Shown: one piece after another, positions 58,917 through 63,274 of the stretch | Layout of the letters: each line of letters starts with the position of its first letter | How positions within the stretch are numbered: position 1 is the first letter of the stretch | Assembly: GCA_964016885.1 (NCBI GenBank) | Contig: OZ024760.1 | Location: forward strand, 12,090,001 to 12,154,000 | Length of the DNA: 64,000 nucleotides | Source: Eledone cirrhosa | Taxonomy: Eukaryota | Reading direction: 5' to 3' | The notes under the pieces: model-generated | Told to the model about the DNA's origin: nothing | The model's input: only the letters and a program-made list of their open reading frames with translations | The model's database searches: none | Translations under genes and position numbers: made by a program

Positions 58917-58963
58917 ATGCCATTACCGAAAAGAAGATCTCCTAGGCACAGAAAGGATCGGAG
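58917..58963 (+). CDS. First coding exon of transformer/feminizer-like RS protein
   Basis: ATG CCA TTA CCG AAA AGA AGA TCT CCT AGG... gives MPLPKRRSPRHRKDR(R). AG|GTAAAT donor, phase 2, matching the next exon. Confidence 0.7.
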
Positions 58964-59696
58964 GTAAATATTTTATTAATTCTTCCTTTCTCTGCCATCA
59001 TAATATAGCGTCAGAAATATAACTTGTAAAACCATTTTAATTACTAACTCAATATTAAGACCTCTGGGTTTTTTTTCTTTTAAATTTCAATTCTCAAAAG
59101 TGAGATACATATTCATTTTAGAAATTAATCGTGTATAAATTATATTTGTAAAGAAATAAATGAAAACCATTTCACTTTTTGGAAGAGAGACCGCTCCAAT
59201 AATAGTGAAAATGAAAACCAACGAATTATAGTTATCACATAGATTTCACTTTTAATTTGACCGCAATTACGCATAAGAAATATAAATAATTAAAGTAAAT
59301 TATTAGTAGGACAATCAAGTCTTTCAAGTGATATTATTTCATCATTTCCTCACCCTAACATGTTAAAAAAAAAAGTTGCAACTATACTGACACTGACCCC
59401 GAAATAACGATCTCTTTAATGACCACTAGGTCACCACATATAGGGTACAATACAAAAAGACGGGGACATTGAGGGGTGGGGTGGGGGTGTTAAATAAAGA
59501 AATGAACGGATTTAATTTATGTTTCCGCTGATAATTTTCACGATTTTCTTCACTAAAACATGTCTTGGACAACTTTGAAAGGTCATCATGATATCTTATA
59601 ACTATTTTAACATATTCACATCTAATTAATAAATACCTCTAGAAAATATACTAACGTTTGCAGCTACCCACACTTTGAAGATTTAATAGTAATAAT

Positions 59697-59905
59697 GGTT
59701 TCTGGTTTAAGCATAAAGCCAACAAATTTTTTTTTGTGGATGGGAGAAAGGAAAGTCGATTAAATCGACCCCAGTGTGTTACTGGTACTTTATTTTATCG
59801 ACCCTGTAAGGATGAAAGGAAAAGCTAACCTGGCGGGATTTAGACTCAGAACGTTAAGGAATGTAAATATATGCCGCAAAGCATGTTGTCTGACGCTCTA
59901 CCGAT
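59697..59905 (-). mobile_element. SINE S1-related copy in intron 1
   Basis: Reverse complement of the S1 body and head. Confidence 0.75.
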
Positions 59906-60878
59906 TACTACGAAAACGCCGGTTTTTTAATGAAATCGCTGCTTGTCTACATAGAAATGTCTCTGGCATTGATCGTATATAAATATATGTATATATATTA
60001 TAAATGTATAGTGTGTGTATGTATATATATATATATATGATTTAGGAAATCTATTATATCATCTTAATTTGTTATGTGTGTTCATGGATATATATATATA
60101 GAGAGAGAGTCGGTGAATAGAACAAATTAGGAAATGATCGTAAAACAATGAACTAATTAAGAATCTATCTTTGACTTTGTTTTAGTTTCATTTTTCAATA
60201 CACACATATATATTATCATCATCCTCACCGTTTAACGTCAATTTTTCCATGCTTGCCTGGTTAGATAGGTCGCCCACGTCATGAGACAAGTCTAGCTATA
60301 TATATATATATATATATATATATATATATATACATATATATATATATATATATGTGTGTGTGTGTGTGTGGTGTTACTCATGCTGGCATGGAAAAATTGA
60401 CGTTAAACCGTTATGAATATGATGATGATGATATATATATATATTTATATAAAAACACCCAGCCTACACTGTAAAGTGTTCGTGTATGTGTCACAACAAA
60501 AGTACCCAGACCACACTGTAAAGTGTTCGTGTATGTGTCACAACAAAAGTACCCAGACCACACTGTAAAGTGTTCGTGTAGGGGTCACAACAAAAAGCAC
60601 CCAGTCCACACTGTAAAGTGGTTGGTGTTAGAAAGGGCATCCAGCTGTAGAAATCTAGCCAGACACAGTCCTATATTTTCCCCAAATGGGACAACCTGTT
60701 TAACCCATGCTAGTGTGGAAAGTGAGCGTTAAACGATGATGATGATAAATTGATAATTGATTGATATAATAAATTGACTTGTGCATTATTACGTAATGTA
60801 CTGGGTAATTGCTGGCCTTGTGCCAATAGTAGAAACATTTATTACATAATTTATTTGTTCATTTAAAATATTTTCCAG

Positions 60879-61190
60879 AGAAAGATCTCCTGCGAAATCC
60901 CTCTCTCTTTACCACAGGAAAGAGAGCCACCACCACAGTGAAGGTTACATGCCCTACAGTCATGCAAACCATTATCGGCCAAGTGCTACAAGTAGGGACG
61001 GACATCGGTCAAGGTCACCTGTTGCACGTATGGCATCTCCACACAGCCCGACTCATACAATGTCCATGTCTCGACGACATAGGTTTTCTCCTGCTTCTCA
61101 CCATGACAGCCATAATCGTCGGGATCACCCAAGGAAGGGTTACAGCCCAATTCCAAGACGCAGTCCTGTCAGTATGAAGCGACGTTCAAA
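60879..61190 (+). CDS. Exon 2 of transformer/feminizer-like protein (R/S/P/H-rich)
   Basis: TTTTCCAG acceptor, AA|GTAAGC donor, phase 2/2. ERSPAKS...HRSRSPVAR...PRRSPVSMKRRS(K). Confidence 0.85.
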
Positions 61191-61246
61191 GTAAGCTTTC
61201 CGATTTTAATTTATTTGTGGTGCCACAGTCTTCTTTTTTTCCTTCT

Positions 61247-61328
61247 TCTCTCTCTCTCTCTCTCTCTCTCTCTCTCTCTCTCTCTCTCTCGAGAGAGAGA
61301 GAGAGAGAGAGAGAGAGAGAGAGAGAGA
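61247..61328. repeat. (TC)22(GA)19 self-complementary microsatellite
   Basis: The TC run 61247-61290 directly abuts the GA run 61291-61328. Confidence 0.95.
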
Positions 61329-61774
61329 TAATATATGTGGTTGGTGTTAGGAAGGGCATCCAGCTGTAGAAAACCCGCCAGACAGTCCTATGCGAGCAAT
61401 GACAACCACTCTTGTCTCAAGTGGGAAAACTCCTGTCCAAACCCATGCAAGCGTGGAACATGGACGTTAAACGATGATGATGATATATATATAGAGAGAG
61501 AAAGAGAGATATATATATAGAGATATATATAATGATTTTTGTGAAAATCAGTCATATGGAACTATTGTCATCTTGCCTGATGGTTTGAACTTTACAACAC
61601 CACCTGCCTCTTTGAGGTCAAATACCAACCCTACTACCATTTACAAACTGACCAATGAGAATTAAGACTATTCCTGCTGACGACATTAAATTATTCCTAA
61701 CAAGCTCATATGTCCCAAGGCTCTGATACCATCAACACTATAAACACAGAGCTGGCATATCTAAGAACTGACTA

Positions 61775-61830
61775 ACTGCCTGATGAGGTCATAGCCATTC
61801 AATGGCTATCATTGAAATATATATAGCAGT
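61775..61830 (+). ncRNA. Type I hammerhead ribozyme (family J)
   Basis: ACUGC-CUGAUGA-GGUC-AUAGCCAU(UCA)AUGGCUAU-CAUU-GAAA-UAUAUA-UA-GCAGU, followed by AAUAAA. Confidence 0.75.
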
Positions 61831-61966
61831 AAATAAAGGATTATGAGTTCATGCAATTGACTTATGTTTCGTCACTATATATATATAAATGTATATATAT
61901 GTGTGAAGTAATTCCGTCGGAAAGGTCCAGGAAAAAAGAGTGCTCTATGTAGGTTACAGAACTTAT

Positions 61967-62193
61967 TAGTTATGTAATAAACAACATAAGATAATTATTT
62001 CATTTACCAGTGGTTTCTTGAAAGCAAGCAAATTTGCTTTCAGTCATCAGTGGATTTGCAAAACGTTTTTCAAATCCACTTTCAATAAACACACCAGGAT
62101 TTTTTCATTCTGATGACTGAAAGCAAATTTGTTAGCTTTCAAGAAACCACTGGTAAAAGAAATAATTATCTTATGTTGTTTATTACATAACTA
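61967..62193. ncRNA. Inverted pair of family B hammerheads
   Basis: Arms 61967-62050 and 62110-62193. The + copy (62104-62162) is near intact. The - copy has the core but a replaced stem I 5' strand. Confidence 0.8.
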
Positions 62194-62283
62194 AATATAT
62201 ATATATATATTTCTTCTGATGAAAAACTAGCGCCCAAAACGTTAAGACCCTCTTCTTGATATTTCAAGCGTTAACTTAATATA

Positions 62284-62328
62284 TTCCTGATGATTTCCTT
62301 CGAATGAAACAGTTCTAGTCCTGTAGAA
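62284..62328 (+). ncRNA. Hammerhead family C copy (core intact, 3-bp stem I)
   Basis: UUC-CUGAUGA-UUUC(CUUC)GAAU-GAAA-CAG...CUG-UA-GAA. Confidence 0.7.
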
Positions 62329-62584
62329 GCCATTTCTATATTAAATATTTATACTCTACTATGTATTGAGTACTCACTGTGGTTACCCCCGATTGAACCC
62401 AGGATACACACGTGTGTGTGTGTGTGTGTGTATATATATATATATATATATATATATATATATATATATATATATATATATATATATATATATATATATA
62501 TGTGTGTGTGTGTGTGTGTATTGACCATTTACAGAAGTCCCACCCATATTAAATTGTAATTGTTGTTTGATTTTGATTACCTAG

Positions 62585-63274
62585 GTCCCCGCTGTGGAGC
62601 AGTAGCAGACAGGTGGTGCCATCTATGTCACCCATACAATACAGTGGTCAACCCAGTTCCAGTTATAAGAAGTCAGGACAGTCATTTGGTCACTCCTCCT
62701 CTCAGCGGGCCTCTCTCTCTAATTACCACCACGACAGTCCACTACCTTCTTCTTCTTCGTACAACAACAGGAAGATGTCCCCAAATGCTTCGGGCTATTC
62801 GCAGCTGTCTTACCAGTCATCGCATGCTGTCGTTCCTGAAGATACCTTCAGTCGCGTGGCCCTTGGTCGGTCCTATCTACAGAATCACAGACGTTGTACT
62901 CTCACCGACCGTTTTAAAATGCTTGAACCGGAGACCTCTTTCCACTTTGATGAAAACATCACTATTGGTATTCATCGAAACTCACAGGTAGCACCTGGGT
63001 CTCCCCAACCTGTTCGACGGGATTTCAATCCCTATGAATTTGTGATGATCCGACAGAAGAACGAAGGAGCAAGGGCCCTCTTTGATCGAGAGGAACTGCG
63101 CCAATATAGCATCATTGATGTGGGCGAGGAGGAGCTTGGCTACAAAGAACTTCGTGTTGTGACTGTGGCCTCTCACGAAAGAGGGGATTACCCTGAACTG
63201 AGCGATGAGGAGTTCCGTAGCTGGTCGCCATCATATGTGGCTACCGAAGATGAGGTACATGGTTACCTTGATAG
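62585..63274 (+). CDS. Exon 3 of transformer/feminizer-like protein, containing a CAM/SDP_N-like motif; gene continues beyond the window
   Basis: CCTAG acceptor, AG|GTGAGT donor, phase 2/2, 230 open codons. Motif ENITIGIHRN...VRRDFNPYEFVMIRQKNEGARALFDREELR. Confidence 0.85.

What the first reader, a model, noticed from the sequence alone, without database searches (positions are those of the whole stretch)
58917..63274. transformer/feminizer/csd-like gene (CAM domain) in a probable cephalopod
Seen: three phase-matched exons give about 349 aa, RS/SP/H-rich at the N-terminus, with ITIGIHRN-x10-VRRDFNPYEFVMIRQKNEGARALFDREELR at 62952-63101. From memory of the family, honeybee Csd/Fem has IKLEIHRD...VKRDIINPEDVxxxRRTGEGSKPIFEREEIK, the CAM region of insect Tra within Pfam SDP_N. 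Spacing and key residues (IHR, RD, NP, R, EG, F[DE]REE) agree. Tra/Fem is the sex-determining splicing switch of insects. CAM-containing proteins have been noted outside insects, but their role is unclear, and the cephalopod sex-determination cascade is unresolved. Here the motif is uninterrupted in one exon and lies after an RS region. A sex-related role is hypothesis only.
Basis: partly seen in the sequence, partly recalled or inferred. Interest (0 to 1): 0.9.

Follow-up and report, generated by a model that had tools for sequence, protein, structure and literature searches.

The report
Octopus relative of insect transformer gene
This octopus gene encodes a spliced, single-copy relative of the insect sex-switch gene transformer, but it likely lies off the sex chromosome and likely works as a general RNA-splicing helper, and its family may link transformer to the vertebrate splicing factors BCLAF1 and THRAP3.

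Summary
The CAM-like motif is real and homologous to insect Tra/Fem. The gene is longer than reported: 10 coding exons and 585 aa, running 21 kb past the window. One public contig splices exons 1-3 as modelled. Pfam SDP_N does not hit it. A coleoid profile does retrieve bee Fem and a Nasonia CAM protein, and reverse profiles score 25-45 bits against 0 of 2000 shuffles. Relatives occur in molluscs, nemerteans, chelicerates, Daphnia and echinoderms, and the CAM tree follows the phyla. Most relatives end in an HDxR/RG/WxHD module like CASC3's eIF4A3-binding SELOR; Gromadzka 2016 found that pair only in CASC3, BCLAF1 and THRAP3. Octopods have lost it. A sex-switch role is unsupported: the gene is on C21 while Z markers map to C28, the Pro-rich tail and CAM intron are absent, and no stop-codon exon was seen. 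Best reading: a likely tra orthologue acting as a general SR-like splicing co-factor. Bold reading, untested on vertebrate sequences: transformer and BCLAF1/THRAP3 are one bilaterian family.

The parts
58700..58916 (+). 5' untranslated part of exon 1 (the transcript begins further upstream)
   Evidence: X4 contig 17 is colinear from 58700 and has 83 more letters before it; in-frame stop just upstream of the ATG
58917..58963 (+). coding exon 1, start codon, Arg/Lys-rich N-terminus
   Evidence: spliced in X4
60879..61190 (+). coding exon 2, Ser/Arg/His-rich (RS/SP) region
62585..63274 (+). coding exon 3: Ser-rich region, then the conserved core; ends at a GT donor
62901..62915 (+). LxxRF motif (aa 226-230), 17 residues before the CAM strand
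   Evidence: present in 54 of 82 non-coleoid, non-hymenopteran rows
62958..63101 (+). CAM region (aa 245-292), homologous to Tra/Fem/Csd; no intron before EG
63147..63167 (+). conserved strand after the CAM (aa 308-314), E[KR]R-type motif of the family
63275..64000 (+). start of intron 3; the gene runs off the window. Seven more coding exons lie in G000:C21: exon 4 12154403-12154486; exon 5 12159687-12159851 (165 nt, frame-neutral, DLR motif, skipped in the 536-aa Octopus isoforms); exon 6 12165180-12165241; exon 7 12168510-12168566; exon 8 12172084-12172145 (eroded remnant of the HDxR half); exon 9 12174475-12174682 (RG-rich); exon 10 12175275-12175345 (stop codon; no WxHD)

Best explanation
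The locus is a spliced, single-copy, 10-exon gene for a 585-aa Ser/Arg-rich protein carrying the transformer CAM motif; it is likely the octopod orthologue of arthropod transformer and likely acts in both sexes as a general splicing co-factor, not as the sex switch. Shown: the gene structure, splicing of exons 1-3, CAM homology, the family's range and layout, and loss of the C-terminal HDxR/WxHD module in octopods. Inferred mechanism: the protein has no recognised RNA-binding domain and no predicted globular fold, so it would be brought to pre-mRNA by an RNA-binding partner (Tra2-type, from recalled insect biology) through the short CAM, LxxRF and DLR motifs. It would then promote splice-site use through its RS/SP region, as the N-terminal RS domain of THRAP3 does. 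Most relatives would also dock on eIF4A3 of the exon-junction complex through HDxR/WxHD; the octopod protein would have lost that link. Skipping the frame-neutral exon 5 would tune partner binding without switching the protein off.
For: Gene. Orthologues at 74% (O. bimaculoides), 73% (O. sinensis), 69% (Argonauta) and 46% (unnamed P0003) identity. Spliced contig in run X4. One locus in the genome with the core as query and with a distant relative; the full-length query adds only one weak C2 match (E 0.001) over the RG-rich tail. CAM homology: 51 hits at E<=0.001 among 1.84e9 proteins; 5 of the 50 scanned pass the SDP_N cut-off and 10 pass the Btz cut-off. Reverse profiles give 25.0 and 44.8 bits, with 0 of 2000 shuffles as high in each of two shuffle types. 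Tree of 37 rows and 119 columns: molluscs 96/91, arthropods including bee Fem and Daphnia 91/90, echinoderms 98/91. Layout: 60 of 82 non-coleoid, non-hymenopteran rows have both SELOR-like halves; the family profile hits CASC3 in PDB 2hyi_D at E 5e-4; P-12, P-8, H, D and R are invariant in 12 of 12 rows, matching the HDxR definition in PMC4797287. Against a switch role: Z markers on C28 and none on C21; dsx is arthropod-specific and Daphnia tra knock-down had no reported effect on sex (PMC6721801). AlphaFold pTM 0.27.
Against: No function was tested, and no male/female data were examined. Pfam names nothing in the protein. The hymenopteran-only profile scores the window protein at just 25 bits, which would not be significant at database scale. 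Those Fem rows were themselves found with coleoid or family profiles, though Pfam calls them SDP_N independently. The tree rests on 119 columns and one search; the root was my choice, 3 of 40 rows were dropped for lack of an anchor, five branches were flagged long, arthropod support is unstarred, and no clade test was run. Autosomal position does not exclude a downstream sex role. The RS content is modest, so SR-like activity is inferred.
Confidence: 0.66

Rival explanations
1. The gene is a sex-determining switch in cephalopods: Z dose controls its splicing so that working protein is made in one sex, as with insect tra/fem.
For: True CAM homology and likely orthology. Octopods and hymenopterans both lack the SELOR-like tail (0 of 7 hymenopteran rows have it). 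Exon 5 is alternatively spliced in two Octopus species. An autosomal gene can act downstream of a dose signal.
Against: On C21, not the Z-marker contig C28. No Pro-rich tail (6% Pro in the last 90 aa against 9-24% in 7 hymenopteran rows). No intron before EG (against PMC6721801). The only known alternative exon keeps the frame. No extra exon among exons 1-3 in the one transcript contig, of unknown sex. No match to a recalled Tra/Tra2 element within one mismatch on the sense strand over 34 kb. dsx is arthropod-specific.
Confidence: 0.1
2. The CAM is homologous, but the gene is not the orthologue of tra: it is a paralogue or a product of domain shuffling in a family of RS proteins.
For: Domain order differs from bee Fem (RS mostly before the CAM here, after it in Fem). 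The C-termini of the octopod protein and Fem are unrelated. Only about 50-110 aa align. Some species show more than one row in the hit lists (Ruditapes, and three Andrena Fem copies).
Against: The Daphnia protein P0118 and three unnamed relatives carry both SDP_N and Btz above cut-off (4 of 36), bridging the two layouts. The CAM tree needs the minimum of 3 label changes for 4 groups. One locus was found in this genome.
Confidence: 0.12
3. The protein works mainly as a nuclear-speckle or chromatin scaffold (ERH/WTAP-associated, as reported for BCLAF1/THRAP3), not as a direct splice-site activator.
For: BCLAF1/THRAP3 cross-link to ERH and are needed for WTAP's speckle location (passages of PMC9270653 and PMC5699544). 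The nemertean relative's nearest named Atlas clusters are THRAP3/BCLAF1. The model is a string of short elements with no globular fold.
Against: It depends on an untested orthology. It is not exclusive of the best explanation.
Confidence: 0.1
4. The resemblance to the CAM is chance or convergence in a low-complexity protein.
For: No Pfam hit; short motif; Atlas recognition score low for the core.
Against: 0 of 2000 shuffles in four controls; E 2e-21 to a Nasonia protein with three SDP_N repeats (a score summed over the three) and 7e-4 to bee Fem in a library-wide search; a continuous chain of intermediates.
Confidence: 0.02

Closest known systems
Insect Transformer / Feminizer / Csd (Pfam SDP_N PF12278, Apis_Csd PF11671)
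   Same: CAM region (40% identity over 52 aa to Colletes Fem-type P0057); Ser/Arg-rich; no RRM found by Pfam; both lack the SELOR-like tail.
   Different: RS region mostly before the CAM; RG-rich, not Pro-rich, C-terminus; no intron before EG; no stop-codon exon seen; no SDP_N N-terminal part, so Pfam does not score it.
Daphnia pulex LOC124188874 (P0118; SDP_N + Btz; taken to be Daphnia tra, identity with the published gene not checked) and chelicerate/myriapod relatives
   Same: RS - CAM - DLR - RG order; 44% identity over 52 aa in the CAM.
   Different: Daphnia and most of these keep the HDxR/WxHD module; the octopod protein does not.
Uncharacterised mollusc, nemertean and echinoderm 'Btz domain-containing' / 'SRRM1-like' proteins (Ostrea, Mytilus, Potamilus, Elysia, Aplysia, Lineus, Strongylocentrotus, Antedon)
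   Same: Direct relatives: LxxRF (spiralians), CAM, E[KR]R, DLR and RG tail; the window protein groups with molluscs at 96/91.
   Different: Octopods lost both SELOR-like halves; the unnamed relative P0003 keeps only HDxR.
Vertebrate BCLAF1 / THRAP3 (PF15440)
   Same: Published layout: N-terminal RS domain and C-terminal MLN51-like segment (PMC2879504), HDxR followed by WxHD (PMC4797287). This matches the invertebrate family, not the octopod protein's own tail. Top three named Atlas clusters for the Lineus relative (0.77-0.78, lead only). [quoted passage not shown]
   Different: No vertebrate-named sequence was retrieved. PF15440 gave one sub-cut-off hit among 86 relatives and none in this genome. 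A CAM in BCLAF1/THRAP3 is not shown.
CASC3 / Barentsz / MLN51 (Pfam Btz PF09405)
   Same: The family's C-terminal HDxR and WxHD align with the CASC3 SELOR in EJC structures.
   Different: This genome has a separate CASC3-like gene on C10. In CASC3 the two motifs lie close together, whereas the family has an RG-rich spacer.

Membership tests
Insect Tra/Fem (definition in PMC6721801) | CAM domain | tested here: met
   Pfam SDP_N itself gives no hit
Insect Tra/Fem (definition in PMC6721801) | RS domain | tested here: inconclusive
   R+S is 32-42% over aa 1-200, but only 12 RS/SR dipeptides lie before the CAM and 10 after; no dense RS run
Insect Tra/Fem (definition in PMC6721801) | Proline-rich C-terminal domain | tested here: not met
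   6% Pro in the last 90 aa; no Apis_Csd hit
Insect Tra/Fem (definition in PMC6721801) | Conserved splice junction inside the CAM, before EG | tested here: not met
   the CAM is continuous in exon 3 in the genome and in the X4 contig
Insect Tra/Fem (definition in PMC6721801) | Sex-specific splicing with a male stop-codon exon (holometabolous form) | tested here: inconclusive
   one transcript contig of unknown sex shows none among exons 1-3; contigs drop rare forms
Insect Tra/Fem (definition in PMC6721801) | Controls dsx splicing with Tra2 | not testable with these tools
   needs an assay; dsx is reported as arthropod-specific
Bilaterian CAM family (tra orthogroup, as delimited here) | CAM core that groups by phylum; one locus in the genome | tested here: met
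Bilaterian CAM family (tra orthogroup, as delimited here) | DLR motif and RG-rich tail after the CAM | tested here: met
Bilaterian CAM family (tra orthogroup, as delimited here) | C-terminal HDxR + WxHD (usual, not universal: 60 of 82 rows) | tested here: not met
   3.7 and -3.5 bits; lost in octopods, absent in hymenopterans too
BCLAF1/THRAP3 | PF15440 match | tested here: not met
   0 of 6 coleoid proteins; none in the genome under a stricter first look
BCLAF1/THRAP3 | N-terminal RS region plus C-terminal HDxR/WxHD | tested here: inconclusive
   met by most invertebrate relatives, not by the octopod protein
BCLAF1/THRAP3 | Reciprocal profile or tree orthology with vertebrate sequences | not testable with these tools
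   no vertebrate-named sequence was returned, and the hits that could be named include none; the Atlas gives names only
CASC3/Barentsz | Btz (SELOR) domain | tested here: not met
   no hit in coleoid relatives; the genome's Btz hits lie on C10
Cephalopod Z-linked gene | Location on the Z chromosome | tested here: not met
   5 of the 19 markers in Table S6 of PMC10925132 were searched: 4 hit C28 (two of them only C28), 1 found nothing, none hit C21. That C28 is Z is inferred; coverage was not tested

The most novel reading that the evidence does not exclude
Insect transformer is the arthropod branch of one ancient bilaterian gene, an RS - CAM - SELOR-like mRNP factor whose vertebrate members are BCLAF1 and THRAP3. 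The sex switch arose by co-option, with the eIF4A3-docking tail replaced by a Pro-rich tail, and octopods lost the same tail independently. This gene is the cephalopod witness of that family.
Probability: 0.5. Interest if true: 0.8.

Novelty: new variant of a known kind. Interest (0 to 1): 0.55.

Why it matters
Wexler et al. 2019 (PMC6721801, section 5 read) say the origin of tra is not pinned down and might be intractable. The core defined here (LxxRF - CAM - E[KR]R) finds relatives across molluscs, nemerteans, arthropods and echinoderms and gives a tree that follows the phyla, so the question can be tested. If the link to BCLAF1/THRAP3 holds, a textbook insect sex switch and two human splicing and mRNA-export factors share an ancestor, and work on each would inform the other. 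For cephalopod sex determination the result is mostly negative: this is a weak candidate, off the Z, though male/female RNA data would settle it cheaply.

Tried and rejected
Pfam on the window peptides and coleoid relatives: nothing. PF12278 and PF15440 in the own genome: nothing, and no control rang, so absence is not shown. The SPAG9 marker (PF16471) found nothing. PDB sequence searches with A1 and P0027: 0 hits. Atlas on the core: only low-scoring bacterial clusters at 0.75, ignored. AlphaFold of the core gave pTM 0.27 and mean pLDDT 67.7, so no fold search was run. No complex was folded: no suitable partner sequence was held. The look-up of sequencing runs listed no holder on record as RNA; of the 4 runs laid (of 5 listed), only X4 had a spliced contig, X1 and X2 read as genomic DNA, and X5 covered 218 bases of exon 3. 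The 'longer' homologue search with A2 covered only 1051-3000 aa and gave two clam proteins; the 'near' search scored only the top 7999 candidates, so missing vertebrates is weak evidence. A first exon join was off by one base at several junctions and was corrected. A first tree script failed. Literature: searches transformer+CAM domain+mollusc, +Saccoglossus, +Btz domain, and BCLAF1+THRAP3+invertebrate+Btz gave 0 papers. doublesex/transformer/BCLAF1/THRAP3 listed 7 papers; passages of 2 were read and draw no homology. A 2015 paper on an acorn-worm tra homologue is recalled, not retrieved. Earlier findings of this scan: nothing. Rejected: that the gene ends at 63274; that it is CASC3; that the motif is chance; that read-through of intron 3 is a real isoform (it would stop at once after 350 aa, but X4 depth gives no sign of it).
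Full report
1. What is in the sequence. The window lies at G000:C21:12,090,001-12,154,000 of a 3.0-Gb genome. The motif it quoted is at 62952-63101. Position 63274 is a splice donor, not the end. Using neighbouring stretches and the O. bimaculoides orthologue as a guide, I found seven more coding exons, all GT-AG, giving an open frame of 585 aa. Identity over the aligned length is 74% to O. 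bimaculoides LOC106873970, 73% to O. sinensis, 69% to Argonauta and 46% to an unnamed relative P0003, so the host is an octopod. Of four runs laid, X4 holds a 1599-letter contig that joins exons 1, 2 and 3 with no differing letters. It runs on for 249 letters, the length of exons 4 plus 5 (84+165); those letters were not shown. O. sinensis and O. vulgaris records include a 536-aa isoform lacking the 55 aa of exon 5; skipping it keeps the frame here too. The core finds one locus in the genome, with its own sequence and with a distant relative as query.

2. Is the CAM resemblance real? UniRef nonetheless labels the O. bimaculoides protein 'Complementary sex determination N-terminal domain-containing'. 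A profile of four coleoid cores (A1) against 1.84 billion representatives gave 51 hits at E<=0.001. Among the 50 scanned, 5 pass the SDP_N cut-off, including a Nasonia protein with three SDP_N repeats and a Colletes protein with SDP_N plus Apis_Csd. In reverse, a profile of 6 hymenopteran CAMs scores the window protein at 25.0 bits. A 14-row profile (those 6, Daphnia P0118 and 7 unnamed SDP_N-positive rows) scores it at 44.8. None of 2000 whole-protein or 2000 local shuffles came near either score (maxima 4.0-7.4). Pairwise identities are 40% and 44% over 52 aa to bee Fem and Daphnia, and hhalign gives 96.5%. The homology is real, with the caveat that the insect rows were reached through these profiles.

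3. The family. Named hits are bivalves, gastropods, a chiton, two nemerteans, horseshoe crabs, spiders, a millipede, Daphnia, bees, an ant, a wasp, crinoids and sea urchins; many rows have no name. A tree of the core (37 of 40 chosen rows, 119 columns, rooted on echinoderms by my choice) puts 16 molluscs on one side of a 96/91 branch with the window protein. It puts 9 arthropods, including Fem and Daphnia, on a 91/90 branch, and needs the minimum of 3 label changes. That fits a single orthologous gene, but the alignment is short and no clade test was run. The shared layout is RS region - LxxRF - CAM - E[KR]R - DLR - HDxR - RG-rich - WxHD. By regular expression, of 82 non-coleoid, non-hymenopteran rows with at least 150 aa after the CAM, 54 have LxxRF, 74 DLR, 65 the HD half, 69 WxHD and 60 both halves. 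These rows include isoforms and near-copies, so they are not independent; 10 of 137 proteins had no anchor and 29 were too short. Ten of 50 first hits pass the Btz cut-off. Four of 36 later hits, Daphnia among them, pass both SDP_N and Btz. The family profile finds the CASC3 SELOR in EJC structures (E 5e-4). The genome's own CASC3-like gene is separate, on C10.

4. What is special here. The octopod proteins score 1.8-3.7 bits on the HDxR half, against 66 for P0003, and below zero on the WxHD half. P0003 keeps the first half only. Hymenopteran Fem rows lack both halves (0 of 7) and mostly end Pro-rich. The eIF4A3-docking tail therefore appears to have been lost twice; this is an inference from the tree. 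AlphaFold gives no globular fold for the core (pTM 0.27), only short helices and strands, as expected for motifs that fold on a partner.

5. Sex role. Coffing et al. (PMC10925132; parts 1-2 of 5 and supplement part 3 read) describe ZZ/Z0 and list 19 conserved Z genes. I searched five by Pfam family. DDOST and SMARCB1 map only to C28, FHIP and PRPS families have a copy on C28, the SPAG9 domain found nothing, and none hit C21. C28 is therefore probably Z and this gene autosomal. Wexler et al. (PMC6721801; passages and section 5 read) define Tra by RS, Pro-rich and CAM domains and note a conserved junction before EG. They state that dsx is arthropod-specific and that Daphnia tra knock-down had no reported effect on sex. 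Here the Pro-rich domain and the junction are absent. The one transcript contig, of unknown sex, has no extra exon among exons 1-3. A recalled Tra/Tra2 element has no match within one mismatch on the sense strand over 34 kb. Passages of an octopus dosage-compensation preprint (10.1101/2024.12.09.627507) do not mention transformer. None of this excludes a downstream role, since no sexed RNA was examined.

6. The BCLAF1/THRAP3 lead. I noted this idea before testing it (note), from a recalled resemblance of short motifs (LxxRF, DLR, RG tail) that comes from no call. What the calls add: THRAP3 has an N-terminal RS domain needed for splicing activation and a C-terminal MLN51-like segment needed for mRNA decay (PMC2879504, passages). 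HDxR followed by WxHD, with prolines at -8 and -12, was found in BTZ, BCLAF1 and THRAP3 (PMC4797287, passages), and those positions are invariant in 12 of 12 family rows. The three best named Atlas clusters for the Lineus relative (aa 270-613) are THRAP3/BCLAF1, at 0.77-0.78, which the tool rates a lead only. NCBI names the spider relative BCLAF1-like. Against: no vertebrate-named sequence came back (the second scored only the top 7999 candidates). PF15440 gave one sub-cut-off hit in 86 relatives, and shared RS/RG composition plus two short motifs could explain the Atlas result. I put this at even odds.

7. Mechanism. Most likely (0.66) the protein is an RRM-less SR-like co-factor, recruited to pre-mRNA by an RNA-binding partner through its short conserved motifs, that promotes splicing through its RS/SP region in both sexes. 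It would lack the exon-junction-complex contact of its relatives. The gene, its splicing, the homology and the motif loss are shown; partners, location and activity are inferred from Tra and THRAP3.

8. Novelty. That CAM-like proteins exist outside insects is not new: the database label exists, and I recall, but could not retrieve, a 2015 report of an acorn-worm tra homologue. I found no paper joining transformer to a Btz-like tail or to BCLAF1/THRAP3. The library lacks most subscription journals, bioRxiv supplements were closed, and figure alignments in these papers could not be seen. Other papers seen as passages only: PMC5699544, PMC8605363, PMC5524875, PMC8626073, PMC9290531, PMC10078687, PMC10605862, PMC9270653, PMC5728405. 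Verdict: a real, likely tra orthologue with a variant layout; a weak candidate for cephalopod sex determination; a useful handle on the origin of transformer. Interest 0.55.

Noticed in passing
window 45876-46209 (+): Probable last coding exon of a small membrane-protein gene: acceptor at 45875, two hydrophobic stretches, a PPPY motif; weak Claudin_2 hit (E 0.005, below cut-off).
   Followed up: partly
window 56500-57141 (+): Decayed LINE fragment: weak RVT_1 hit (E 2e-4) followed by a Cys-rich frame, just upstream of the gene.
   Followed up: partly
window 40532-43397: About 2.8 kb of tandem repeat (unit about 45 nt, read by eye) with open frames of over 900 codons on both strands; probably a minisatellite. 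Smaller arrays lie at 1470-3030 and 24100-24930.
   Followed up: no
L007:6215-6727 (-), L008:3507-3692 (-), L009:1491-1769 (-): Candidate exons of a downstream gene on the minus strand; the L008 frame has TPR hits (E 6e-6, below cut-off).
   Followed up: partly
L005:5033-5330 (-) and L006:1907-2461 (+): Frames that recall Tc1/mariner transposase fragments (recalled resemblance; Pfam gave nothing for the L006 frame).
   Followed up: no
L010 and L011 (G000:C10:24,096,169-24,098,378): CASC3/Barentsz-like gene with both SELOR motifs in two exons.
   Followed up: partly
G000:C28: Carries DDOST, SMARCB1 and copies of FHIP and PRPS family genes; probably the Z chromosome of this assembly.
   Followed up: partly
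P0012 (Nasonia vitripennis LOC116417962): A Tra-like protein with three tandem copies of the CAM region.
   Followed up: no
P0033, P0122, P0085, P0086 (Mya, Ruditapes, Mercenaria): Clam forms of the family in which the SELOR-like tail is replaced by a long C-terminus, with a C2H2-type zinc-finger hit in two; a Ruditapes form with the normal tail (P0105) also exists, so these may be isoforms.
   Followed up: no
P0014, P0017, P0027, P0037, P0053, P0054, P0102, P0118 and others: Many family members from molluscs, a nemertean and Daphnia end in a short KPSSTT-like tail after WxHD; it is unexplained and absent in octopods.
   Followed up: no
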